A stretch of DNA of 64,000 nt from Candidatus Pacearchaeota archaeon (GCA_017609885.1 JAFCDB010000001.1:6732-70731); one strand, 5' to 3'; positions 6,126 to 59,168 are shown, numbered from the stretch's first letter. The notes: generated by a model not told the origin, from the letters alone. Translations and numbers: made by a program.

Positions 6126-7421
6126 ATGAAAGAAGATGCAGAGCACAAAGAACTTTTGAAAAAAATGTCAAAGGTAAAAATGAGTGCGCCAAAAGGTAAA
6201 AATAATTTGAAAAGCAATGTTGAACTTGGTAGAGATTTGGATTTGTATATAGTTAGCGAGATTGTCGGCGGTGGTTTGCCGTTGTTTACTCCAAAAGGGG
6301 CTGTGATAAAAAGAGAGATTGAGAGATTTGCAACAGATGAAGAAATTAAAAGAGATTATCTTCATACTTCAACGCCTTTTATGGCTAAATCAGATTTATA
6401 CAAAGTTTCAGGACACTGGCAACATTATCAGAAAGATATGTTTTGTTTGAATGTGGGAAAAGAAATTTTTGCCTTGCGTCCGATGACTTGCCCTTTTCAT
6501 TTTGTTTTATACAAAAGGAAGCCAAGGAGTTACAAGGAACTTCCTTTGAAATATGCTGAAGTTTCTACAATGTTCCGAAATGAACAATCTGGGGAATTAA
6601 GAGGATTGACAAGAGTGAGGCAAATGACATTGACAGATGCGCATATTATCTGCACGCCTGAGCAATTAGAAAAAGAATTTGAGAAAGTTTTGGATTTATT
6701 AAAATATACAATGGACAAACTTGGAGTTAAAGATATTTGGTACAGATTTTCAAGGTGGGACCCTAAAAACAAGGGAAAATATATTGATAATCCTCGGGCT
6801 TGGAAAGATTCTGAAGAAAAAATGAAGAAAATTTTAAATAAATTAAAAGTAAAATACAAAGAAGCAAAAGATGAGGCAGCGTTTTACGGCCCTAAATTAG
6901 ATTTGCAATATGAAGATGTTTATGGAAAAGAAGATACATTGTTAACTGTTCAAATTGATTTTGCACTTCCTGAGAGATTTGACCTAACTTACAAAGACAA
7001 AAAAGATAAATTGCAACATCCGATTATTATTCATCATTCTTCAACAGGCACTACAGAAAGAATGATTGCATATCTTTTGGAAAAAAATCAGGGGACGCTT
7101 CCAATGTGGCTTTCCCCAATCCAAATTAGAGTGATAAATTTTACTGATAGGAATAATAAATATGCAGAGATGGTTGTTGAGAAGATTAAGGCAGGAATTC
7201 CTGATGTGAGAATTGATGTTGATTTTGATACTGTTCCTTTAAGAGGGAAAATTCGAAATGCAGGAATGCAAAAAATTCCTTATATTATTGTTGTTGGGGA
7301 TAAGGAGGAAAAAGCAAAAACAATTGCTGTTAGAAAAAGAGGGGATAAGAAAATTAATTCAGAAAGTGTAGAAAAGTTTATTAAAGAAATTAAATTAGAA
7401 ATTGAGGAGAGGAAATGTTAA
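6126..7421 (+). CDS. thrS: Threonyl-tRNA synthetase, catalytic plus anticodon-binding domains only (no N-terminal editing domain)
   Basis: Class II motif 2 region FALRPMTCPFHFVLYKRKPRSYKELPLKYAEVSTMFRNEQSGELRGLTRVRQMTLTDAHIIC matches ThrRS (RPMNCPGH...SYRELPLR...E.SG.L.GL.RVR.F.QDDAHIF); 431 aa. Confidence 0.8.
   Translation: MKEDAEHKELLKKMSKVKMSAPKGKNNLKSNVELGRDLDLYIVSEIVGGGLPLFTPKGAVIKREIERFATDEEIKRDYLHTSTPFMAKSDLYKVSGHWQHYQKDMFCLNVGKEIFALRPMTCPFHFVLYKRKPRSYKELPLKYAEVSTMFRNEQSGELRGLTRVRQMTLTDAHIICTPEQLEKEFEKVLDLLKYTMDKLGVKDIWYRFSRWDPKNKGKYIDNPRAWKDSEEKMKKILNKLKVKYKEAKDEAAFYGPKLDLQYEDVYGKEDTLLTVQIDFALPERFDLTYKDKKDKLQHPIIIHHSSTGTTERMIAYLLEKNQGTLPMWLSPIQIRVINFTDRNNKYAEMVVEKIKAGIPDVRIDVDFDTVPLRGKIRNAGMQKIPYIIVVGDKEEKAKTIAVRKRGDKKINSESVEKFIKEIKLEIEERKC
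7365..7417. repeat. 53-bp perfect direct repeat, copy 1 (last 53 nt of thrS including its stop region)
   Basis: AGTGTAGAAAAGTTTATTAAAGAAATTAAATTAGAAATTGAGGAGAGGAAATG is identical at 7365-7417 and 8006-8058. Confidence 0.9.
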
Positions 7422-49402: not shown

Positions 49403-49861
49403 ACTCCCAAATCCCCCTTCTCCCCTTTCACTCTCTACCAATTCCTTAACTTCTTCAATCTCTACATTTTCAATCTTATTAATAACTGCCTGTGCAATTT
49501 TGTCTCCTTGCTTTATTTCAAAATTTTCATCTCCGTGATTAATTAAAATTACCCCTACTTCTCCCCGATAACCCGAGTCAATTGTTCCAGGAGAATTTAC
49601 AAGTGAAATTCCTTTTTTTATTGCAAGTCCGCTTCTTGGACGAATTTGCATTTCATATCCAGGAGGAATTTCAAAAATTAAACCGCTTTTTACAAGGCAT
49701 CTTTCACCAGGTTTTAGGAAATGTTCACTTGTTGAAAATAAATCCATTCCTGCATCGCCAGGATTTGCATAAATTGGGGTTTGCGCTTTTTCATGTATTT
49801 TTTTTATTTTTAGTTTCATTATCCGCATCCGCCTCCTTGAATTTCTCCGCAATCTGTACAT
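49394..49861 (-). CDS. dut: dUTP diphosphatase (trimeric dUTPase)
   Basis: ANPGDAGMDLFS (motif I), RSGLAIKKGISLVNSPGTIDSGYRGEV (motifs II-III). Confidence 0.75.
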   Translation of the reverse strand: MYRLRRNSRRRMRIMKLKIKKIHEKAQTPIYANPGDAGMDLFSTSEHFLKPGERCLVKSGLIFEIPPGYEMQIRPRSGLAIKKGISLVNSPGTIDSGYRGEVGVILINHGDENFEIKQGDKIAQAVINKIENVEIEEVKELVESERGEGGFGSSG

Positions 49862-52584
49862 TTAGGATGATTGCATCCTGCCTCGAAAGTATATTCTTCA
49901 TTTCCGCATGCCTCACACACAAACGCCTTATCTAATTTTCCATGATTTCCACTAACCAACAACTCTTCATCAGAACTTGTAACCCTAACTTGCGACAATA
50001 AAGACATATACTCGTCAGTTCCTTCCTCAACCTTGCGTAGCTCAGACTTATGCACAAGATTAATCAGCCTCCCATTATCATCATTTCCAACAATTCCATT
50101 TTTTAATAAACAATCTTCTAATACAACCCCTGCTGCATGTTCAATTGATTTAATCTTTCTTGGTCCCAACCCTTCTTCTTCATTTGAAGAAGCAGACTGC
50201 AATCTCCCAATAAGTTCAGCATAATTTGGATTAGGTTGCCTCAATATCTCAGTCCTATCCATTCCTGATTGAGCAAAGCTCACACTTGTTGCATGTCCTA
50301 AAGGAGCCCGAGTCTGAAAAATTTCATCGGGAATAAAATACGCTTTCCCTCCCTCATCATCAACATAAATATTACTTGTAATAGTTATATGTAAACTATC
50401 TCCATTATTTGGCCTTTTAACTTTGTACTTCAATGCCTGAGCTTTAAGATTAACAATCTCATGCGGAGAAACATTATTCTGCACAAGAAGAGTTCTTTTT
50501 TCTAACCCACTTAAAACCCCCTTCTTGGAATTATCTCTAAAAATCGTAATTCCCACACAACCTTCATCATAAGCCATTTTGTAAGTATTTAATACATCTT
50601 CAACTGTTGCATCTTCTGGCAAGTTAACTGTTTTAGAAACTGCATTATCTACTCCAACTCCATTACCAACCTGAAAAGCTGCCTGCATTCGAACATGCCA
50701 TTCTGGAGCAATATCATGAGAAGTAGCATAAATTCTTTGAATTTCCTCAGGGATCACATCCATTTCTCTGACACTGCCAATTTTCTCAATTGTTTTAATA
50801 ATTCCTTCTAATTTAACCTTATCAAATTGCTCATATAAATCTCCCTCAAGTAAAGGATTCCTGTAAATTAATTCCTTGCCATCCATGCAAGTTTTTTTAA
50901 ATGCAAGTCTAAAAAAAGGTTCTACTCCACCAGAAACATTGCATATCATTCCTGTTGTCCCATTTGGAGCAATTGTGGTAACAGTTGCGTTTCTAACTCT
51001 CAGCCCCTCCTTCTCCCATACACTCCCTTCCCAATATGGAAAGACTCCCCTCTCCTCAGCAATTTCCACAGACTTTTTTCTTGCTGTTTCAGTAACATAA
51101 TCACTTACACCTTTCGCAAGTTCAACAGCTTCCTCACTATCATATGCCATGCCTAATTGCGCAAGCATTTCAGCCCATCCCATCATTCCAAGTCCAATCT
51201 TTCTCGTACCATGAACTTTCCCATAAATTTTTTGAAAGGGAAACTTGCTCATATCAATCACATTATCTAAAAAATGAACAGCAGTTCCAATTCTATTCTC
51301 AAGTTCAGAATAATCTACTGAAGAATCATTTACACAGTTCGCTAAATTTATCCCACCCAAATTACATGCTTCAAATGGAAGAAGAGGTTGCTCTCCACAA
51401 GGATTTGTTGATTCAATTCTTCCAACATGTGGAACAGTATTTCTTTGTTCTAATCTATCTAAAAAAACAATTCCAGGACAACCTGTTTTCCACGCACATT
51501 CAGATATATAATCAAATAGAGAATGTGCGTTAATCAAAAGAGTTTCATCATCAGCAACTTTCCCAATTTCTTCTCCACTATAAATATTAATTACTTTCCC
51601 CTCATCAACAATCAATGACGGATTTAACTCTCCAAATAATTCATCATATTTTCTAGTTCCTTTTTCCAAAACATTCTCCTTTTTCCATACTCTTTCCTCT
51701 AAAGGGACATCAGATTCTCTTTTTGGATTTACTAACCTAAAATAACCTTCATCTTTTACTAATTGCATAAACTTATCATCAATTCCCACTGACAAATTAA
51801 AATTAACCAAAGTTCCATTTGTTTTTTCATTAATAAATTCTAGAATATCTGGGTGAGTATAATTTAATATCGCCATGTTTGCCCCTCTTCTAAATCCTCC
51901 TTGATTAACTGCATCAGTTGAAGAATCAAAAACCTTGATAAATGGAACTGGACCGCTTGATGAACCAAATGTAGTTGAAATCATATCTGAGCGAGGCCTT
52001 AAATGTGAAAAATTGAATCCTGTACCTCCACCGCTTTTGTGAATCATTGCCATATATCTTAAAACATCATAAATTCCATTTCCTTGTTTTTCAGCATCTT
52101 CGCCAATATCATCTGTAGCCATATAATCTTCAACAGGTAAAACAAAACAAGCAGAAAGTTGTTGCAAGGCCCGTCCAGCATTGCATAAAGTTGGAGTATT
52201 TGGCATGAATCTTTGGTACAACATTGACTCTAAGAATTCATCAGCAACAGATTTAATATCCTTATCTGAATTATATTTCAAATCAGCTTCTGCAATATTA
52301 ACTGCAACTCTTGCAAATAAATCTAAAGCGTTTTCAATAACTTCTTTATTCTCATTTTTTTCAAGATACCTTGTCTCAAGAGTTAATCTTGCGTTTGGGA
52401 CAAAATAAATATCTTCCTCTCTCTCATTATCATGAATTTTATATCCTGTTCCTTCTTCTCTAACATAGTCTGTTATTGCATATCTCTCTTTAACTAGTGA
52501 TTCAAGAGCTCTTCTCTCACTTTCTGTTTGTCCGACAAATGGTCTGCTCTTCTCAAGATCTCTAACTAAATCCTCTTCCATCAC
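49819..52584 (-). CDS. nrdJ: Ribonucleotide reductase class II (adenosylcobalamin-dependent, NrdJ) with C-terminal zinc ribbon
   Basis: 921 aa; active-site region STNPCGEQPL, TAPNGTTG; C-terminal CEACGNEEYTFEAGCNHPKCTDCGEIQGGGCG. Confidence 0.85.
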   Translation of the reverse strand: MMEEDLVRDLEKSRPFVGQTESERRALESLVKERYAITDYVREEGTGYKIHDNEREEDIYFVPNARLTLETRYLEKNENKEVIENALDLFARVAVNIAEADLKYNSDKDIKSVADEFLESMLYQRFMPNTPTLCNAGRALQQLSACFVLPVEDYMATDDIGEDAEKQGNGIYDVLRYMAMIHKSGGGTGFNFSHLRPRSDMISTTFGSSSGPVPFIKVFDSSTDAVNQGGFRRGANMAILNYTHPDILEFINEKTNGTLVNFNLSVGIDDKFMQLVKDEGYFRLVNPKRESDVPLEERVWKKENVLEKGTRKYDELFGELNPSLIVDEGKVINIYSGEEIGKVADDETLLINAHSLFDYISECAWKTGCPGIVFLDRLEQRNTVPHVGRIESTNPCGEQPLLPFEACNLGGINLANCVNDSSVDYSELENRIGTAVHFLDNVIDMSKFPFQKIYGKVHGTRKIGLGMMGWAEMLAQLGMAYDSEEAVELAKGVSDYVTETARKKSVEIAEERGVFPYWEGSVWEKEGLRVRNATVTTIAPNGTTGMICNVSGGVEPFFRLAFKKTCMDGKELIYRNPLLEGDLYEQFDKVKLEGIIKTIEKIGSVREMDVIPEEIQRIYATSHDIAPEWHVRMQAAFQVGNGVGVDNAVSKTVNLPEDATVEDVLNTYKMAYDEGCVGITIFRDNSKKGVLSGLEKRTLLVQNNVSPHEIVNLKAQALKYKVKRPNNGDSLHITITSNIYVDDEGGKAYFIPDEIFQTRAPLGHATSVSFAQSGMDRTEILRQPNPNYAELIGRLQSASSNEEEGLGPRKIKSIEHAAGVVLEDCLLKNGIVGNDDNGRLINLVHKSELRKVEEGTDEYMSLLSQVRVTSSDEELLVSGNHGKLDKAFVCEACGNEEYTFEAGCNHPKCTDCGEIQGGGCG

Positions 52585-53124: not shown

Positions 53125-53733
53125 TTATTTTTCGCTGAAAAATTTGTTTAACGAAAAATTTGTCAAAAAAATCATTGAAAAGTAAATTCCAAACCAAATT
53201 AGCGGATACAACATCTGCACCTGATAATCGCCGCAGAATTCAAAGACACAGTTGAGATTTCTCTCTATTGGCGTGAAAAAATAAATTAGGAAGTAAAAAA
53301 TTGTGGCTTGGAGAAAGCTGATTTGCCATGAATTTTTTGTTTTTAATTTTATTAAATGAAGTGCTACTAATGACAAAGGAATTGTGTAGAGGTGCTGGGT
53401 TGTTACGAGCTTTGAAATGATAGGACCTTGTTCGAAAAAATAATTTGAAATTCCCCAAAGAATTCCGCCTGTTAGAAAAACATAAATAAAATCAATTGTC
53501 CAAATTAGCATTGGAATTGCAAGAATGTTTAATTGACTTACAATGAGCCAATCTTTTCTTAACAAAATTCCTAGTCCGATTAGCAAAAGGCCGAGATAGC
53601 AAAACCAGATAATGCTAAAAATATCATATTCGTAAAGGGCGTTGATTACAGCAATTGTTCCGAGGATTAGGAAAAAGATTCCAAGTAGGTTTAGGAAAAT
53701 ATTTTTTTTATTCATTGATTGTTTTTTCTTCAT
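53125..53733 (-). CDS. Polytopic membrane protein
   Basis: 202 aa, about 6 TM. Confidence 0.4.
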   Translation of the reverse strand: MKKKQSMNKKNIFLNLLGIFFLILGTIAVINALYEYDIFSIIWFCYLGLLLIGLGILLRKDWLIVSQLNILAIPMLIWTIDFIYVFLTGGILWGISNYFFEQGPIISKLVTTQHLYTIPLSLVALHLIKLKTKNSWQISFLQATIFYFLIYFFTPIERNLNCVFEFCGDYQVQMLYPLIWFGIYFSMIFLTNFSLNKFFSEK

Positions 53734-53778
53734 GTGTATAGTAAGAGTTTTTAAATTTAAAAATCATTGGGTTTTTAT

Positions 53779-53869
53779 GTCCCTGTAGTTCAGTCAGGAT
53801 AGAACATGACCTTGCGGTGAGTTTGCTCGCGAATAGGTCAAGACCGCGGTTCAAATCCGTGCAGGGGCG
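53779..53869 (+). tRNA. tRNA-Arg (anticodon GCG) with a ~17-nt intron in the anticodon loop
   Basis: Hand-folded: acceptor GTCCCTG/CAGGGGC, D-arm GTTC...GAAC, anticodon stem TGACC...GGTCA separated by TTGCGG plus TGAGTTTGCTCGCGAAT(A); T-arm CGCGG-TTCAAAT-CCGTG. Confidence 0.55.
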
Positions 53870-53887
53870 TTTTTGCGGGAGCAAACA

Positions 53888-53996
53888 GGCTTTGGTGAAA
53901 TCATAGGATATATAACATTTTTCTCAATTTAAAATCTACATTGCGAGACAAATCACGTCGAGCAATGCTGGGCGGGCGGGTAGGGAATTGAGAAAA
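53888..53996. repeat. 109-bp perfect direct repeat, copy 1 (contains internal inverted repeat TTTTCTCAATT...AATTGAGAAAA)
   Basis: Identical to 57189-57297. Confidence 0.9.
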
Positions 53997-54058
53997 TTGA
54001 AATTTATTAATTATTATAACTTAGGTGCAGATAAGTTTTGTTTGTTCTTAAGTTATTT

Positions 54059-54274
54059 CCCCTCATAGCTCAGTGGTTAGAGCGCTTGGCTGTAGAAATA
54101 AAGGGGACCTAAGGTTCACCTTTATCAAACCCTCCTAAAAGAGGACAACCTTCGGTTGTCTTATAAGGAGAGTTGCGATTAGGGCGGACGTTCCATTGGA
54201 TTAGAATGAAACCTGATTAGCCGAAAGTTCGTGCAGAACCCGAGAGATCCCCGGTTCGAATCCGGGTGGGGGGA
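54059..54274 (+). tRNA. tRNA-Tyr-like (anticodon GTA) with an unusually long (~144 nt) intron
   Basis: 5' exon CCCCTCA-TA-GCTCAGTGGTTAGAGC-G-CTTGG-CTGTAG...; 3' exon C-CCGAG-AGATC-CCCGG-TTCGAAT-CCGGG-TGGGGGG-A pairs with it (acceptor, anticodon and T stems all consistent). Confidence 0.5.
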
Positions 54275-54282
54275 TTTATCTT

Positions 54283-54298
54283 CCAAAAAATTTAAAAA
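54283..54298 (+). promoter_or_regulatory. BRE/TATA motif CCAAAAAATTTAAAAA, 26 nt upstream of the ATG at 54320 (leaderless)
   Basis: Same 16-mer (one mismatch) recurs at 54846 and 55631. Confidence 0.4.
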
Positions 54299-54319
54299 TC
54301 TTCTTTTTCATGTAAGAAT

Positions 54320-54517
54320 ATGGAAATTCAAACAAAGGACATAATGGATGAACTTAGGCAGATAAGAATTGATATTGAAATAATCAAGGATAATATGCCT
54401 GATAAAGAAATGTTCTTGACAGCAGATGAAGAAGTCTTATTTGAAAGAAGTTTTGAAAATGAGAAAAATGATGAGCTTATTTCTTCTGAAGAATTAAAAA
54501 AAGAGTTGGAGATATGA
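54320..54517 (+). CDS. Putative antitoxin of the RelE-like module
   Basis: 65-aa acidic ORF overlapping the toxin start by 4 nt. Confidence 0.4.
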   Translation: MEIQTKDIMDELRQIRIDIEIIKDNMPDKEMFLTADEEVLFERSFENEKNDELISSEELKKELEI

Positions 54518-54771
54518 AATTTTCCATTGATTATGATAAACAACCAATTAAGTTTCTTAAAAATCAAAATAAATTTATAACAAAAAGGATTATTGAAAAA
54601 ATAGATTCATTATTAGTAAATCCAGTTCTCAGCAATGCAAAACCGATTGTTGAGAAACACAATTGTTTTAGAATAAGAATAGGAAATTATCGCGCTTTGT
54701 ATAGGATTAATTATAAAACTAAAATCATTATAGTATTCAAATTAGATAAGAGGGAGAAAGTTTATAATTAA
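54514..54771 (+). CDS. relE: RelE/ParE-family type II toxin
   Basis: KHNCFRIRIGNYRALYRINYKTKIIIVFKLDKREKVY matches the RelE C-terminal signature. Confidence 0.65.
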   Translation: MKFSIDYDKQPIKFLKNQNKFITKRIIEKIDSLLVNPVLSNAKPIVEKHNCFRIRIGNYRALYRINYKTKIIIVFKLDKREKVYN

Positions 54772-54845
54772 TAAATGATTTACTAATAATAAATCCCTAT
54801 AAGAAACAAACTAATAATTCTGTTATGGGCAGAGGATTGAATGTT

Positions 54846-54861
54846 CCAAAAAACTTAAAAA
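54846..54861 (+). promoter_or_regulatory. BRE/TATA motif CCAAAAAACTTAAAAA, 26 nt upstream of the ATG at 54883 (leaderless)
   Basis: Motif recurrence and spacing. Confidence 0.4.
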
Positions 54862-54882
54862 CACCCAACCACTGAATTAATC

Positions 54883-55227
54883 ATGGCGAAAGAATGCGAA
54901 TTTATGTACGATGATTTTTCAGACAGACTTTTTATTTCTTGTAAAAAAGATTCTGATATGATTGCTGGAAGCGTAAGGTTGCTGAATTTAGTTGTGGACT
55001 TTACAACAGATAATAAGGTTGTTAATGTTGAAATTATTGGGGCTTCTGATTATTTAGAATCAATCGGGTTTGATTCTTCTATTTTAAATAAGTTAATTTC
55101 TGTTGATTTGGTTTTTCAGCAAAAAAGAAATGGATATATGATTTATTTTATTCTTCATAGTGAATCTCAAACTCAGAGAATTCCTTATAATTTAATAACT
55201 GAAAATCCTTCGATGATTAACGCTTAA
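54883..55227 (+). CDS. Hypothetical protein
   Basis: 114-aa ORF. Confidence 0.35.
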   Translation: MAKECEFMYDDFSDRLFISCKKDSDMIAGSVRLLNLVVDFTTDNKVVNVEIIGASDYLESIGFDSSILNKLISVDLVFQQKRNGYMIYFILHSESQTQRIPYNLITENPSMINA

Positions 55228-55549
55228 ATCTTTTTTCTAAACTTCTTTTATATTCTATTGCATGTATGATTAAAACTTTGTTGTTTTTTGGACAGGTCGC
55301 TATTGAAAAATAAATGTTGTTACTTAATTTGTAAAATAATTCGTATCCTAAATCTCCATATTTTAATCTTTCTTTTTCTATTTCATATACTTTTTCAAAT
55401 TGCGGGAAAATTTCCAAAACTTTCTGATGTTCTATTCCTTTTTTAAGAATTCCAAATTTATAATATTCTGTAAATATCAATCTTTTCCCTTTAATTTTTT
55501 CAGTTATTATTTTATCAATTTCTTTTTTGTCTGTGATTAATTCAACCAT
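55217..55549 (-). CDS. Hypothetical protein
   Basis: 110-aa ORF, convergent with 54883..55227. Confidence 0.35.
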   Translation of the reverse strand: MVELITDKKEIDKIITEKIKGKRLIFTEYYKFGILKKGIEHQKVLEIFPQFEKVYEIEKERLKYGDLGYELFYKLSNNIYFSIATCPKNNKVLIIHAIEYKRSLEKRFKR

Positions 55550-55630
55550 AATTGTTTTAATATTTTAATATATTTAATTGTTTTTGATTCGGGAATTTAG
55601 GAGATTTAATTATGGGGAATGAGGAATTTT

Positions 55631-55646
55631 CCAAAAAACTTAAAAA
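55631..55646 (+). promoter_or_regulatory. Third copy of the CCAAAAAACTTAAAAA motif, with no ORF at the predicted TSS
   Basis: Identical to the 54846 copy; predicted TSS near 55668 lies in non-coding sequence. Confidence 0.3.
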
Positions 55647-55832
55647 TATTATTAATTCAACCTCAAAATAAAAAACATTAAAATAATTTCAAAACGCGAT
55701 ATTATTTTAAAGAATTTTTTAGTTTAAATATTTTTCTACAGATTTTTTATTTTAATCGGCTATAAAAAAGTTTAAAAAGGGAATATATTTATGAAAGATA
55801 TTAATCAAATAGATTAAACAAAGAGGTTTACA

Positions 55833-55943
55833 ATGTCAGAAATTGAATTAGAACAATTTAATGAGGAAATGGACGATGAAGAACTTTTAAAAGGTGGTAC
55901 AGAAGAGGTTGAGGATTTTCTTGATTTTGATGATGACGAATAA
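55833..55943 (+). CDS. Small (36 aa) extremely acidic ORF, doubtful
   Basis: My translation: MSEIELEQFNEEMDDEELLKGGTEEVEDFLDFDDDE. Confidence 0.2.
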   Translation: MSEIELEQFNEEMDDEELLKGGTEEVEDFLDFDDDE

Positions 55944-56008
55944 TTTTTTCTTTTTCTTTGTTTTTTTATTTACATTAATTATATAAATAATCTTTTTTTT
56001 GAAAAGAT

Positions 56009-57184
56009 ATGTTAATTGGATTAATTGGAAGGCCGAATGCAGGGAAGTCAACGTTTTTCAAGGCTGTAACTATGGCAGATGTTTTGATTGCGAATTATCC
56101 TTTTGCGACGATTAAGCCGAACACCGGAGTTGCTTATGTTAAAATTCCTGATTTGGCTGCGGAGTTTGGGAAAGTATCTGAACCTCGGGAAGGTTATGTA
56201 AAAAATAAGTGGAGGTTTGTTGGTTTTGAATTGATGGATGTTGCAGGATTAGTGGAAGGAGCTAGTGAGGGCAAAGGATTAGGAAATGAATTTCTAAATG
56301 ATTTGGCAAATGCAAATGCATTTATTCACGTTGTTGATATGTCTGGGGAAAGTGACGGGGAAGGCAAACCTACAGAAAATTATGATCCTTGTTTGGATAT
56401 TAAAATTATTGAAAGAGAATTGGATTTATGGTATCTTGGAATTTTTAAAAAAGTGTGGAGAACTTTTTCGCGGACAGTTGAAGCTAAGAAAAAAAATTTT
56501 GCCGAGGCTGTTGCGCGGCAATTTTCTGGATTAAAAGTTAGTGAAGGAGATGTAAAGGAAGTTGTTTTGAAAAGTGGGTTAGATGTTGAGCATCCAGCGA
56601 AGTGGAGAGAAGATGAAATACTGAAGTTTGCGTCTATGTTAAGGAAAATTTCAAAGCCAATGATAATTGCGGCGAACAAAGTTGATCGTCCTAATGGAAA
56701 GGAAAATTTTGAAAAGGTGAAAGAAGAATTTGATTACCCTATTGTTGCGTGTTTTGCAGAGGGGGAATTGGCTTTGAAAGAGGCTGATAAGCATGGGTTG
56801 ATAAATTATGTTCCTGGAGAAAAAGATTTTAAAGTTTTGAAAAAGGGGAGTGAAAAACAGTCGGAGGGGTTGAAAGTGATTAAAAAAGTTATGAGGGAGT
56901 TTAAGGGAACCGGGGTGCAATCAGTTCTTGATAAAGTTGTATTTGATGTTTTAAATTATATTACTGTTTATCCTGCTGGTTCTAAACTTGTTGATTCGCA
57001 GGGACGGGTTTTGCCTGATTGTTTTTTAATGCCTTCTGGTTCGACTGCGTTAGATTTTGCTTTTAGATTGCATAGTGACATTGGGAATGGTTTTGTTAAA
57101 GCAATTGATATTAAGACGAAAAGAGCTGTGGGCAAGGATTATGTTTTGAAGCAAGGGGATGGTTTAGAGATTATGGTGAGATGA
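56009..57184 (+). CDS. ychF: YchF/Ola1-type Obg-family GTPase/ATPase with C-terminal TGS domain
   Basis: G1 GLIGRPNAGKSTFF, then ANYPFATIKPNTGVAYV (YchF-specific), DVAGLVEGASEGKGLGNEFL (G3), helical insertion, C-terminal TGS. Confidence 0.7.
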   Translation: MLIGLIGRPNAGKSTFFKAVTMADVLIANYPFATIKPNTGVAYVKIPDLAAEFGKVSEPREGYVKNKWRFVGFELMDVAGLVEGASEGKGLGNEFLNDLANANAFIHVVDMSGESDGEGKPTENYDPCLDIKIIERELDLWYLGIFKKVWRTFSRTVEAKKKNFAEAVARQFSGLKVSEGDVKEVVLKSGLDVEHPAKWREDEILKFASMLRKISKPMIIAANKVDRPNGKENFEKVKEEFDYPIVACFAEGELALKEADKHGLINYVPGEKDFKVLKKGSEKQSEGLKVIKKVMREFKGTGVQSVLDKVVFDVLNYITVYPAGSKLVDSQGRVLPDCFLMPSGSTALDFAFRLHSDIGNGFVKAIDIKTKRAVGKDYVLKQGDGLEIMVR

Positions 57185-57188
57185 AAAG

Positions 57189-57297
57189 GGCTTTGGTGAA
57201 ATCATAGGATATATAACATTTTTCTCAATTTAAAATCTACATTGCGAGACAAATCACGTCGAGCAATGCTGGGCGGGCGGGTAGGGAATTGAGAAAA
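57189..57297. repeat. 109-bp perfect direct repeat, copy 2 (starts 4 nt after the ychF stop)
   Basis: Identical to 53888-53996. Confidence 0.9.
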
Positions 57298-57356
57298 ATG
57301 TCCAAAGCCATGAAAAGAAGCATATAAATATTTAAAAAAGTTCTTTTAGTAGATTT

Positions 57357-58579: not shown

Positions 58580-58768
58580 ATGGGAAAAATTGTAAAGAAA
58601 AATGTTGTGAAGAGAAAGCCTGGTCACCTTTACTATGTCGACGGTAAGGGAAATGTTTGCGAGGCTAAGATGGCTCGCGGCGGACGAAAGAAAAAGAAAG
58701 CGGCAAAGAAAAAGCCAGCAAAGAAAAAGCCAGCAAAGAAAAAGCCAGCAAAGAAAAAGAAAAGATAA
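58580..58768 (+). CDS. Small basic protein with (AKKKP)x3 tail; possible nucleoid/RNA-binding protein
   Basis: 62 aa; GGAGG SD 6 nt upstream; tail encoded by a 15-nt tandem DNA repeat (AAAGAAAAAGCCAGC ×3, 58705-58749). Confidence 0.4.
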   Translation: MGKIVKKNVVKRKPGHLYYVDGKGNVCEAKMARGGRKKKKAAKKKPAKKKPAKKKPAKKKKR

Positions 58769-58805: not shown

Positions 58806-59168
58806 TTATTCCCATTCTCCCCTATTTCTTTCGTTGAATAATCTTCCGCAAACAAGTTCGTTTTCAAGGTCGCGAAGTTTCAGTCTTAATTGAATTCTTT
58901 TTTTGATTTTAAGGTCGCTGTAAACTTGAAACCAAGTTTTTAGTTCAGTGTAGAAAATTGTTCGAGAATTTTGCATGTTAATAAGTTGACTTAAGTCTCC
59001 GAAAACATAGGCGCGACTTTTATTTCCATCAGGGATGGGTTCCCCCCATCGAATGTATGTCCTTTTATGACTTGTAATAATTTTGAATGAATATTTTAAA
59101 ATCTTCTGTTCTTTGTCTGATGCTGTTTGAATGATAGGAGTCTTTAACAGTATCTGCTGCTTTTTCAA
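58806..59168 (-). CDS. Hypothetical protein (third gene of a three-ORF overlapping mini-operon)
   Basis: 120-aa ORF overlapping the upstream 80-aa ORF by 104 nt; true start uncertain. Confidence 0.3.
   Translation of the reverse strand: MKKQQILLKTPIIQTASDKEQKILKYSFKIITSHKRTYIRWGEPIPDGNKSRAYVFGDLSQLINMQNSRTIFYTELKTWFQVYSDLKIKKRIQLRLKLRDLENELVCGRLFNERNRGEWE

What the first reader, a model, noticed from the sequence alone, without database searches (positions are those of the whole stretch)
53888..57297. 109-bp perfect direct repeats bracketing a 3.3-kb segment next to tRNA-Arg
Copies at 53888-53996 and 57189-57297 are identical over 109 bp. Each contains a nested palindrome (TTTTCTCAATT ... 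CATTGC-GAGA...TCGA-GCAATG ... AATTGAGAAAA) and a G-rich tract (GGGCGGGCGGGTAGGG). Copy 1 starts 18 nt after tRNA-Arg. Copy 2 starts 4 nt after the ychF stop. The enclosed segment holds an intron-bearing tRNA-Tyr-like gene, a RelE-type TA pair, two small hypothetical genes, a 36-aa acidic ORF and the YchF GTPase. It also holds three copies of one 16-nt promoter motif. Perfect long direct repeats adjacent to a tRNA are the classic footprint of attL/attR from site-specific integration. Alternatively the 109-mer is itself a structured small RNA or recombination hotspot present in multiple copies.
Basis: seen in the sequence. Interest (0 to 1): 0.65.

Follow-up and report, generated by a model that had tools for sequence, protein, structure and literature searches.

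The report
Small transposon-like repeat, not integration scars
The two identical 109-base repeats are most likely copies of a tiny non-coding mobile element in a small-genome archaeon: one intact 121-base copy sits at the end of the ychF gene and one is a truncated copy, so they are not the scars of an integrated virus or plasmid, and the finding is fairly ordinary.

Summary
The repeat is real: 53888-53996 and 57189-57297 are 109/109 identical, and there are no other copies in the window. The attL/attR reading fails.

- **Copy 2 is a complete element.** It spans 121 nt (57189-57309). It has perfect 8-bp terminal inverted repeats (GGCTTTGG/CCAAAGCC) and a 15-bp inner palindrome. It is flanked by an 8-bp direct duplication, ATGAAAAG; the left copy contains the ychF stop codon. 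This is the signature of a simple transposition.
- **Copy 1 is truncated.** It starts at the same left terminus but lacks the last 12 nt. It therefore has no right terminal repeat and no flanking duplication.
- **The bracketed 3.3 kb is native chromosome.** Three Pacearchaeota-like relatives keep the order tRNA-Tyr(intron) ... small ORF-ychF ... metallopeptidase-DUF192-Lys-rich protein-Kae1. That order runs straight across copy 2, and none of the relatives has the element.
- **No recombinase nearby.** No integrase or transposase lies within 47.9-63.7 kb. The repeat does not overlap the tRNA.
- **No known family.** There is no Rfam match and no homologue in any collection scanned.

Best reading: a MITE-like non-autonomous insertion element, a new member of a known kind. 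It is strongly structured and carries a canonical G-quadruplex motif. Genome-wide copy number and the partner transposase could not be tested.

The parts
57189..57309 (+). Complete 121-nt MITE-like element (copy 2), inserted at the ychF stop codon
   Evidence: Sequence read. Terminal repeats and flanks computed. As RNA, 57185-57312 folds at -44 kcal/mol with z = -6.0; 0 of 200 shuffles fold as well.
57189..57196 (+). Left terminal inverted repeat GGCTTTGG
   Evidence: GGCTTTGG occurs only at 53888 and 57189 in the window.
57302..57309 (+). Right terminal inverted repeat CCAAAGCC, perfect complement of the left terminus; absent from copy 1
57181..57188 (+). Left copy of the 8-bp target-site duplication ATGAAAAG; contains the ychF TGA stop (57182-57184)
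57310..57317 (+). Right copy of the 8-bp target-site duplication ATGAAAAG
   Evidence: An 8-nt flank duplication occurs around arbitrary 121-nt segments at 15 of 63863 positions.
57216..57230 (+). Inner palindrome, left arm ACATTTTTCTCAATT
   Evidence: blastn self-match of element positions 28-42 to 57301-57287. Fold.
57287..57301 (+). Inner palindrome, right arm AATTGAGAAAAATGT. Its last 4 nt lie outside the 109-nt repeat and are missing from copy 1.
57240..57268 (+). Central hairpin CATTGC-GA-GAC-AAATCAC-GTC-GA-GCAATG
   Evidence: Sequence. Minus-strand fold. Fold with G-quadruplex allowed.
57271..57286 (+). Canonical G-quadruplex motif GGGCGGGCGGGTAGGG
   Evidence: these are the only plus-strand G4 motifs in the 64-kb window (32% GC). 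The ViennaRNA fold with gquad allowed gives -63.8 kcal/mol.
53888..53996 (+). Copy 1: identical to positions 1-109 of the element. It lacks the last 12 nt (right terminal repeat) and has no target duplication.
   Evidence: Folds less stably: -27 kcal/mol, z = -2.6. Sits between tRNA-Arg and the tRNA-Tyr promoter/leader.
53970..53985 (+). G-quadruplex motif in copy 1
53778..53870 (+). tRNA-Arg(GCG) with a 17-nt intron; left neighbour of copy 1, not overlapped by the repeat
54059..54274 (+). tRNA-Tyr(GUA) with a 143-nt intron (54096-54238); native gene, syntenic with ychF in relatives
56009..57184 (+). ychF. Its stop codon is preserved inside the left target duplication, and the protein ends at the same position as in relatives.

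Best explanation
The repeat is a small, non-coding, non-autonomous DNA transposon of the MITE type, in the genome of a DPANN archaeon related to Pacearchaeota/Woesearchaeota.

**Structure.** The full unit is 121 bp. It has 8-bp perfect terminal inverted repeats (GGCTTTGG), a 15-bp subterminal palindrome, a central hairpin and a G-quadruplex motif.

**Copy 2 (57189-57309).** It is an intact simple insertion made by a staggered 8-bp cut at ATGAAAAG, right on the ychF stop codon. It leaves the YchF protein unchanged and sits upstream of the next gene's promoter.

**Copy 1 (53888-53996).** It is the same element starting at the same left terminus. It has lost its last 12 bp, which include the right terminal repeat, so it can no longer transpose. 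It lies at a synteny breakpoint between the tRNA-Arg/RNR block and the tRNA-Tyr...ychF...Kae1 block.

**What is shown and what is inferred.**
- Shown: the terminal repeats, the target duplication, the shared left boundary, the absence of the element from relatives, and the native synteny of the bracketed genes.
- Inferred: mobilisation in trans by a DDE-type transposase encoded elsewhere in the genome. The termini weakly resemble the IS903 / IS5-family ends.
- Inferred: both copies are probably transcribed only by read-through from ychF or tRNA-Arg, where the long hairpin and a T5 run could act as a 3'-end element.
For: - **Identity.** The two copies are 109/109 identical, with no other copies in 64 kb.
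- **Copy 2 completes a palindrome.** The 12 nt beyond the repeat pair with the repeat's own 5' end, giving an 8/8 terminal repeat plus 4 extra bp on the inner stem. The 121-nt unit is flanked by ATGAAAAG / ATGAAAAG.
- **Chance estimate.** Background rates are 15/63863 for an 8-nt flank duplication and 5/63879 for an 8-nt terminal repeat. With the left boundary fixed by the repeat itself and about 50 lengths allowed, this gives about 1e-6 (my arithmetic).
- **Shared left boundary.** Identity between the copies begins exactly at the first base of the left terminal repeat in both copies.
- **Stop codon preserved.** The YchF C-terminus ends at the same residue position as in L001 and L022.
- **Relatives lack the element.** L001, L022, L031 and L032 go directly from the ychF stop into the next gene or promoter.
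- **Not conserved, not a known RNA.** There is no Rfam family. There is no homologue in genome contigs, metagenome contigs (one chance 22-mer hit), four viral-contig scans, or the ychF/RNR loci fetched from relatives (L001-L021, L025-L032).
- **Precedent.** MITEs are documented in DPANN genomes, including a Woesearchaea genome with one of the highest densities (PMC11602168).
- **Terminus resemblance.** The left terminus GGCTTTGGTGAA matches the IS903 inverted repeat GGCTTTGTTGAA at 11 of 12 positions.
Against: - Only two copies are seen. Genome-wide copy number is unknown because the 73-kb source contig and the rest of the MAG are not retrievable.
- No autonomous IS with GGCTTTGG termini is present in the window. 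No transposase was found among the ORFs scanned at 47.9-63.7 kb.
- The perfect terminal repeat is only 8 bp, shorter than the 10-15 bp in the definition quoted in PMC11602168.
- Copy 1 has neither a right terminus nor a target duplication, so its origin by transposition is inferred, not shown.
- A blind scan for any 50-800-bp segment with an 8-bp terminal repeat plus an 8-bp flank duplication finds 0.25 per simulated AT-rich 64-kb window. The signature is convincing only because it is anchored on the repeat's own boundary.
- The scans of public collections found no further copies, so this is not a high-copy family in the data available.
Confidence: 0.7

Rival explanations
1. attL/attR: the 3.3-kb segment is an integrated mobile element that entered by site-specific recombination next to tRNA-Arg, with the 109-mers as the duplicated attachment core.
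For: Perfect 109-nt direct repeats lie 3.3 kb apart, one of them 17-18 nt from a tRNA gene. The middle of the segment (54.3-55.8 kb: the toxin-antitoxin pair, DUF2283 and a 110-aa ORF) has low GC, 0.20-0.29, and varies among relatives. In relative L025 the 3' end of tRNA-Arg(GCG) is duplicated 107 nt downstream, so this tRNA can be a target.
Against: - No integrase or recombinase lies in or near the segment.
- The repeat does not include any tRNA sequence, and no second copy of the tRNA 3' end exists in the window.
- The segment's two end genes, tRNA-Tyr and ychF, are native. The order tRNA-Tyr...small ORF-ychF...metallopeptidase-DUF192-Lys-rich protein-Kae1 is kept in L001, L031 and L032 and runs across copy 2.
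- Copy 2 extends 12 nt beyond the repeat to complete its own terminal repeats, and it carries a matching 8-bp duplication on both flanks. That is impossible if its two flanks came from different molecules.
- No viral contig carries the sequence.
Confidence: 0.03
2. A structured small-RNA gene, or a cis-acting 3'-end RNA element, kept in two copies by selection or gene conversion, and not mobile.
For: The 121-nt unit folds very stably: -44 kcal/mol, z = -6.0, and -63.8 kcal/mol with a G-quadruplex allowed. It has a central hairpin with tandem GA/GA mismatches and the only plus-strand G4 motifs in the window. Both copies lie on the same strand as, and immediately 3' of, a transcribed gene: tRNA-Arg and ychF. 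The perfect identity could reflect concerted evolution.
Against: - No Rfam family matches, even at E <= 10.
- Nothing comparable lies at the syntenic position or elsewhere in the relatives' loci fetched.
- The 8-bp flank duplication has no role in an RNA gene.
- Neither copy has room for an upstream archaeal promoter: there are 4 nt after the ychF stop, and 17-18 GC-rich nt after the tRNA.
- Copy 1 lacks the 12 nt needed for the closing stems and folds much more weakly (z = -2.6). The two copies therefore cannot be equivalent RNAs.
- With identical copies there is no covariation to test.
Confidence: 0.12
3. A scar of a chromosomal rearrangement or partial duplication. In this reading the 109 nt next to tRNA-Arg were copied from the ychF 3' flank, or the reverse, by recombination or template switching during the event that joined the RNR/tRNA-Arg block to the tRNA-Tyr block, without transposition of copy 1.
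For: Copy 1 sits exactly at the synteny breakpoint. L025 has the RNR-NrdR-membrane-DAC-tRNA-Arg block, while L001, L031 and L032 have a 470-aa protein gene in front of tRNA-Tyr. Copy 1 is truncated and has no target duplication. Only two copies are known.
Against: The left end of copy 1 coincides to the base with the element's left terminal repeat. That is expected for a transposon end and not for a random duplication boundary. This reading also still needs copy 2 to be an insertion with terminal repeats and a target duplication, so it modifies the history of copy 1 rather than replacing the mobile-element explanation.
Confidence: 0.1
4. Assembly artefact: a metagenome assembler threaded a repeat node twice and created a false A-R-X-R-B path.
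For: The source is a metagenome-assembled contig of 73,406 bp. The exact 109-nt identity is what a collapsed repeat node would give.
Against: The ychF / copy 2 / downstream junction is validated internally by the matching 8-bp flank duplication and by conserved gene order in relatives. That leaves tRNA-Arg / copy 1 / tRNA-Tyr as the only other path. The repeat lengths of 109 and 121 nt match no k-mer size in the usual assembler series, as far as I recall. The two copies also differ in extent.
Confidence: 0.03

Closest known systems
Prokaryotic MITEs (miniature inverted-repeat transposable elements), including those catalogued in archaeal and DPANN genomes (PMC11602168); Sulfolobus SM1-SM4 (from my own knowledge)
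   Same: Size of 121 bp with no coding capacity, intergenic location, terminal inverted repeats, an 8-bp target-site duplication, a hairpin-forming sequence, a lineage-specific sequence, and the existence of a defective copy.
   Different: The perfect terminal repeat is only 8 bp; the inverted repeat reaches 23 bp only if a 19-nt insertion in the left arm is skipped. Only two copies are seen. No partner IS is identified. It carries a canonical G-quadruplex motif in a 32% GC genome.
Correia (Neisseria), ERIC, RUP and BOX-type small palindromic repeats (from my own knowledge)
   Same: Palindromic intergenic units of about 100-150 bp, inserted at gene ends and co-transcribed with neighbours. Their long hairpins can alter mRNA 3' ends and stability.
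   Different: Those are bacterial, occur in tens to hundreds of copies, and have different termini and target duplications (TA for Correia). No transcript data exist here, and the copy number seen is 2.
IS903 / IS5-family insertion sequences
   Same: The element's left terminus GGCTTTGGTGAA matches the IS903 18-bp inverted repeat GGCTTTGTTGAA at 11 of 12 positions. Both element termini share the first seven bases, GGCTTTG. A target duplication of 8-9 bp is typical of parts of this family: IS903 makes 9 bp and the ISH1 group 8 bp (from my own knowledge).
   Different: There is no transposase here. The similarity is limited to 7-12 terminal bases and could be chance. IS903 itself makes 9-bp, not 8-bp, duplications. 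IS903 is enterobacterial.
tRNA-linked integrative elements with attL/attR (archaeal SSV-type or pNOB8-type integrases; bacterial genomic islands)
   Same: Direct repeats bracketing a few kb near a tRNA gene. A toxin-antitoxin pair and low-GC genes lie in the interval.
   Different: There is no integrase. The repeat does not overlap the tRNA. The interval holds native tRNA-Tyr and ychF in conserved synteny. One repeat has its own terminal repeats and target duplication.
IS200/IS605-derived palindrome-associated elements (PATEs)
   Same: Small, non-coding, hairpin-rich repeats that are common in archaea.
   Different: Those elements have asymmetric ends and make no target duplication (from my own knowledge). 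This element has symmetric termini and an 8-bp duplication.

Membership tests
MITE (non-autonomous class II element) | Small size (about 50-800 bp) and no transposase or other ORF | tested here: met
   The element is 121 bp. No ORF of at least 30 aa is contained in it. Size range quoted from PMC11602168.
MITE (non-autonomous class II element) | Terminal inverted repeats (at least 10-15 bp in the definition quoted by PMC11602168) | tested here: inconclusive
   The termini GGCTTTGG/CCAAAGCC are a perfect 8-bp repeat. A further 15-bp inverted repeat follows, but only after a 19-nt insertion in the left arm.
MITE (non-autonomous class II element) | Target-site duplication of 2-10 bp flanking the element | tested here: met
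   Copy 2 is flanked by ATGAAAAG at 57181-57188 and 57310-57317. Copy 1 has none because its right end is missing.
MITE (non-autonomous class II element) | Several dispersed copies in one genome, at unrelated sites | tested here: inconclusive
   There are two copies in 64 kb, at two different intergenic sites. The rest of the genome is not available. Exact-pattern scans of genome, metagenome and viral collections found no other copy.
MITE (non-autonomous class II element) | A related autonomous IS with the same termini that supplies the transposase | not testable with these tools
   There is none in the window: GGCTTTGG/CCAAAGCC occur only at the two copies, plus one unrelated site inside an ORF at 1648. 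No transposase domain was found among the 20 ORFs scanned at 47.9-63.7 kb. The rest of the genome is withheld.
MITE (non-autonomous class II element) | Presence/absence polymorphism (an empty site in relatives or strains) | tested here: inconclusive
   Relatives at 70-77% YchF identity lack the element after ychF. They are too distant for a base-by-base comparison of the empty site, and no close strain was found.
attL/attR of a site-specifically integrated element | An integrase (tyrosine or serine recombinase) encoded at one end of the bracketed segment | tested here: not met
   Pfam on all ORFs between and around the copies gives ParE toxin, DUF2283, NrdR, PhageMetallopep, DUF192 and others, but no recombinase.
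attL/attR of a site-specifically integrated element | The repeat includes the 3' part of the target tRNA gene, so that the tRNA is restored after integration | tested here: not met
   The repeat starts 17-18 nt after the tRNA end. The tRNA 3' 22-mer occurs once, allowing up to 3 mismatches.
attL/attR of a site-specifically integrated element | The bracketed DNA is foreign and absent from, or not syntenic in, relatives | tested here: not met
   tRNA-Tyr and ychF are linked to each other, and to the genes beyond copy 2, in L001, L031 and L032. Only the central 1.5 kb is variable.
attL/attR of a site-specifically integrated element | The two repeats are equivalent, each being a hybrid of two parental sites | tested here: not met
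   Copy 2 continues for 12 nt to complete its own palindrome and has identical 8-bp flanks, so it is a single intact insertion site. Copy 1 is a truncated version.
Known structured RNA family (Rfam 15) | A covariance-model match at or near the gathering score | tested here: not met
   No hit on either copy at the gathering threshold or at E <= 10.

The most novel reading that the evidence does not exclude
The 121-nt unit is more than junk. In this reading it is a mobile, highly structured module whose long hairpin and canonical G-quadruplex act, after insertion, as a 3'-end, terminator or stability element for the upstream transcript (ychF mRNA, tRNA-Arg precursor), or as a G4-dependent regulatory or recombination signal. 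These G4 motifs are the only ones on that strand in 64 kb of 32% GC DNA. That would make it a domesticated G4-bearing MITE in a reduced DPANN genome, and a sequence family not yet in any database.
Probability: 0.12. Interest if true: 0.45.

Novelty: new member of a known kind. Interest (0 to 1): 0.25.

Why it matters
The main value is as a correction. Perfect direct repeats next to a tRNA are easily annotated as a genomic island, and here that would wrongly label native tRNA-Tyr and ychF as mobile cargo.

It also gives a clean single-locus example of recent transposon activity in a streamlined DPANN archaeal genome, with terminal repeats, a target duplication and a stop codon preserved within the duplication.

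The two direct copies are a potential substrate for deleting a 3.3-kb block that carries a tRNA gene and a universal GTPase.

The embedded G-quadruplex motif and the very stable fold are modestly unusual. They could be tested for an effect on 3'-end formation.

Tried and rejected
- **Rfam.** Searched at the gathering score over the window and at E <= 10 over 53.7-57.4 kb. Nothing was found on the repeat.
- **H/ACA, C/D-box and 5S rRNA, by inspection.** There is no ACA/ANA box conserved after the stem, and no C/D boxes. The arm lengths do not fit the 5S three-way junction, and the Rfam 5S model is silent.
- **Replication-origin (ORB) reading.** GC skew only follows gene orientation. The copies are direct rather than inverted. 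No Orc1/Cdc6 was seen among the ORFs scanned.
- **Exact-pattern scans of public collections.**
  - The right-half 24-mer gave 0 hits in genome contigs, metagenome contigs and viral contigs.
  - The central hairpin 29-mer gave 0 hits in viral contigs.
  - The left-end 22-mer gave one hit in metagenome contigs, L023. This is a GC-rich bacterial contig matching only those 22 nt, so it is a chance hit.
  - Left-end and right-end patterns gave 0 hits in viral contigs.
- **blastn-short or nhmmer of the element.** The two window copies were the only significant matches. Run against the window (both programs) and against the ychF and RNR loci fetched from relatives (L001-L021, L025-L032), excluding L022-L024; L001-L021 were searched with the 109-nt repeat, and the later loci with the first 120 nt of the element by blastn-short only.
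- **Supplementary MITE catalogue of PMC11602168.** It is not held as text.
- **Search for the missing right end of copy 1.** CCAAAGCC and the putative duplication AGCAAACA were searched elsewhere in the window and not found in a meaningful context.
- **Covariation analysis.** It was not attempted because the copies are identical and no homologues exist.

Full report
**1. The observation**

The two stretches 53888-53996 and 57189-57297 are identical over 109 nt. A 78-nt core allowing up to three mismatches occurs only there, and none of 100 shuffles produced a match.

The nested palindrome and the tract GGGCGGGCGGGTAGGG are present.

The upstream tRNA is tRNA-Arg(GCG) with a 17-nt intron, at 53778-53870. 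The second tRNA is tRNA-Tyr(GUA), at 54059-54274, with a 143-nt intron at position 37/38. Removing the intron in silico gives a clean 73-nt tRNA-Tyr.

Between the copies lie:
- a ParE/RelE-type toxin with a small upstream ORF;
- a DUF2283 protein and a 110-aa ORF with no family match;
- a 36-aa acidic ORF;
- ychF.

The motif TTCCAAAAAAYTTAAAAA occurs three times (family D6).

**2.

In copy 2, the 12 nt that follow the repeat (ATGTCCAAAGCC) are not arbitrary.
- CCAAAGCC is the exact complement of the repeat's first eight bases, GGCTTTGG.
- ATGT extends the inner stem by pairing with ACAT.

The real unit is therefore 121 nt (57189-57309), with perfect 8-bp terminal inverted repeats and a 15-bp inner palindrome: ACATTTTTCTCAATT / AATTGAGAAAAATGT.

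This unit is flanked on both sides by ATGAAAAG, at 57181-57188 and 57310-57317. The left copy contains the ychF TGA stop.

In this window an 8-nt flank duplication occurs around arbitrary 121-nt segments at 15 of 63863 positions. A perfect 8-nt terminal inverted repeat occurs at 5 of 63879 positions. With the left boundary fixed in advance by the repeat, and about 50 possible lengths, the joint chance is about 1e-6 (my arithmetic).

One caveat applies. A blind scan for any 50-800-bp segment with both features finds only this one in the real window, but it also finds 0.25 per simulated AT-rich window. The signature is convincing because it is anchored on the repeat's boundary, not because such configurations never arise.

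Identity between the two copies starts exactly at the first base of the left terminal repeat. The preceding base is A in copy 1 and G in copy 2.

Copy 1 stops after position 109. It has no right terminal repeat and no flank duplication, and no detached right end exists elsewhere in the window.

As RNA, copy 2 folds at -44 kcal/mol with z = -6.0. Copy 1 reaches only -27 kcal/mol with z = -2.6.

**3. Organism and synteny**

The best YchF relatives (70-77% identity) are MAGs labelled Pacearchaeota, Woesearchaeota or Nanoarchaeota.

Three relatives with long contigs (L001, L031, L032) share this gene order: 470-aa protein, tRNA-Tyr(GUA, with intron), 2-3 kb of variable genes, small ORF, ychF, two DUF167 genes, PhageMetallopep-family protein, DUF192-like protein, Lys-rich small protein, Kae1/TsaD.

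The window has the same block from tRNA-Tyr to Kae1. Even a palindromic leader motif upstream of tRNA-Tyr (ACTTAGGTGCAGRTAAGT) and part of the intron align with L001.

The genes at both ends of the bracketed 3.3 kb are therefore native, and their linkage to the genes beyond copy 2 is ancestral.

None of the relatives has the element:
- In L022 the ychF stop is followed by 70 nt containing a promoter-like box.
- In L031 and L032 the next gene starts within about 10 nt of the ychF stop.
- In L001 a small ORF begins about 12 nt after the ychF stop.

YchF ends at the same residue position in the window as in L001 and L022. This fits an insertion that duplicated the stop codon region without changing the protein.

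On the other side, the block RNR-NrdR-membrane protein is followed by tRNA-Arg(GCG) in L025 and L026 as well, but there a DAC gene intervenes and tRNA-Tyr does not follow. Copy 1 therefore sits exactly at a synteny breakpoint.

**4. Tests of the att reading**

- No integrase, recombinase or transposase domain was found in the 20 ORFs scanned between 47.9 and 63.7 kb.
- The repeat contains no tRNA sequence, and the tRNA-Arg 3' 22-mer is unique in the window.
- The bracketed genes are native (section 3).
- Copy 2 has matching 8-bp flanks. Its left flank (the ychF end) and its right flank (the promoter of the next gene) were therefore contiguous before insertion. That cannot be so if they had been joined by recombination between a circular element and the chromosome.
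- Four viral-contig scans found nothing.

The attL/attR interpretation is rejected.

**5. Tests of the RNA-gene reading**

Rfam gives nothing at the gathering score or at E <= 10. By inspection the unit is not an H/ACA RNA, a C/D-box RNA or a 5S rRNA.

No related sequence was found in the relatives' ychF and RNR loci that were searched (L001-L021, L025-L032). None was found in the genome, metagenome or viral collections with exact patterns from both halves of the element. The single metagenome hit, L023, is a 22-nt chance match in a GC-rich bacterial contig.

Neither copy has room for its own upstream archaeal promoter. Copy 1 lacks the bases needed for the two closing stems.

The fold is nevertheless strong. 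With G-quadruplexes allowed, ViennaRNA predicts a long stem enclosing the central hairpin next to a three-layer G4, at -63.8 kcal/mol. The G4 motifs of the two copies are the only ones on the plus strand of the 64-kb, 32% GC window.

A function of the inserted element at the RNA level, such as a 3'-end hairpin for read-through transcripts, remains possible. It is not shown.

**6. Most likely mechanism**

*Shown.* A 121-bp non-coding unit with terminal inverted repeats lies in an 8-bp duplicated target at the ychF stop. A second, identical but 3'-truncated copy begins at the same terminus 3.3 kb upstream.

*Inferred.*
- The unit is a MITE-like non-autonomous transposon, moved in trans by a DDE-type transposase that makes 8-bp staggered cuts and is encoded elsewhere in the genome.
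- Copy 1 arose by a separate insertion. It then lost its right end, either in the rearrangement that joined the tRNA-Arg block to the tRNA-Tyr block or in a later deletion that restored the tRNA-Tyr promoter context.
- The perfect identity implies that both events are recent, or that the copies have been homogenised.

*A weak lead to the transposase family.* The left terminus GGCTTTGGTGAA matches the IS903 inverted repeat GGCTTTGTTGAA at 11 of 12 positions. Both termini share GGCTTTG. I verified the IS903 ends on a Klebsiella plasmid copy: 1057 bp with an 18-bp inverted repeat. IS903 makes 9-bp duplications (from my own knowledge), so this is a resemblance, not membership.

**7. Comparison with what is known, and verdict**

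MITEs are described as 50-800 bp in prokaryotes, with terminal repeats and 2-10-bp target duplications. They are reported in 20% of archaeal genomes, and DPANN genomes, including a Woesearchaea genome, are among the densest (PMC11602168).

This element meets the size, non-coding and target-duplication criteria. Three criteria are not satisfied:
- The terminal repeat is short (8 bp perfect).
- Copy number could not be established (two copies seen).
- The partner IS could not be tested.

I file it as a probable new member of a known kind, with confidence 0.7.

It is an ordinary finding with two small curiosities: the embedded G-quadruplex motif, and the truncated copy at a rearrangement breakpoint. 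Its practical value is to prevent native tRNA-Tyr and ychF from being mis-annotated as cargo of a genomic island.

Noticed in passing
window 54059-54274 (intron 54096-54238); L001 7416-7575; L031 3060-3215; L032 3203-3358: tRNA-Tyr(GUA) carries an unusually long 143-nt intron at 37/38; the orthologues have introns of 60-85 nt. The intron core TTCCAT.GGATTA.AATGAAAC.TGATTAGCC is conserved between the window and L001, which suggests the intron may encode something, such as a guide-like RNA. The default tRNA scan and Rfam both missed this gene.
   Followed up: partly
window 54021-54038; L001 about 7364-7381: A palindromic motif, ACTTAGGTGCAG(A/G)TAAGT, lies upstream of tRNA-Tyr (about 20 nt in the window, about 35 nt in L001). 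It is conserved between the window and a relative with only 70% YchF identity, so it is a likely leader or promoter-proximal element.
   Followed up: partly
window 53778-53870 versus L025 7258-7331: tRNA-Arg(GCG) has a 17-nt intron in the window, but its orthologue next to the same NrdR/RNR operon in L025 and L026 has none.
   Followed up: partly
L025 6400-7281: In the relative L025, a 27-nt copy (93% identical) of the tRNA-Arg 3' end lies 107 nt downstream of the gene, which is an att-like footprint. It is followed by about 1 kb of repeat-rich non-coding DNA: families of 4 x 70 nt, 3 x 66 nt and 2 x 56 nt, the last with perfect hairpin-plus-T-run units. The 3' flank of this tRNA seems to be an insertion hotspot in the lineage.
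   Followed up: partly
window 55833-55943; L001 9810-9917; L022 218-310: A very acidic micro-ORF (30-36 aa, 34-50% Asp+Glu) sits directly upstream of ychF, with its own Shine-Dalgarno-like AAAGAGGTTTA. It is present in the window and in two relatives, and small ORFs are also called at this position in L031 and L032. It may be a conserved microprotein co-expressed with YchF.
   Followed up: partly
window 53733-53778 versus L025 7384-8004, L027 7429-8019: The diadenylate-cyclase (DAC) domain gene that precedes the membrane protein-NrdR-RNR operon in three relatives is absent from the whole window (no tblastn hit). The two DUF167 genes that follow ychF in L001, L031 and L032 are also missing.
   Followed up: partly
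window 58580-58768 (tandem repeat 58691-58765): A 62-aa Lys-rich protein has a 15-nt tandem repeat encoding (PAKKK)n. Its N-terminal 31-36 residues are conserved in relatives at 74-84% identity and are always found just upstream of Kae1.
   Followed up: no
window 54276-54298, 54839-54861, 55624-55646; also 57326-57347 and 59089-59110: The motifs TTCCAAAAAAYTTAAAAA and AAATATTTAAAAA recur about 25-40 nt upstream of start codons. They are probably the lineage's BRE/TATA promoter consensus. They are unrelated to the repeat element.
   Followed up: no
window 49819-52584 versus L025 9147-11258 and L027 9151-11889: The NrdR-linked ribonucleotide reductase differs among relatives. The window and L027 have a 912-921-aa enzyme with RNR large-subunit domains, only 33% identical to each other. 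L025 has an anaerobic NrdD plus its activase at the same position.
   Followed up: no
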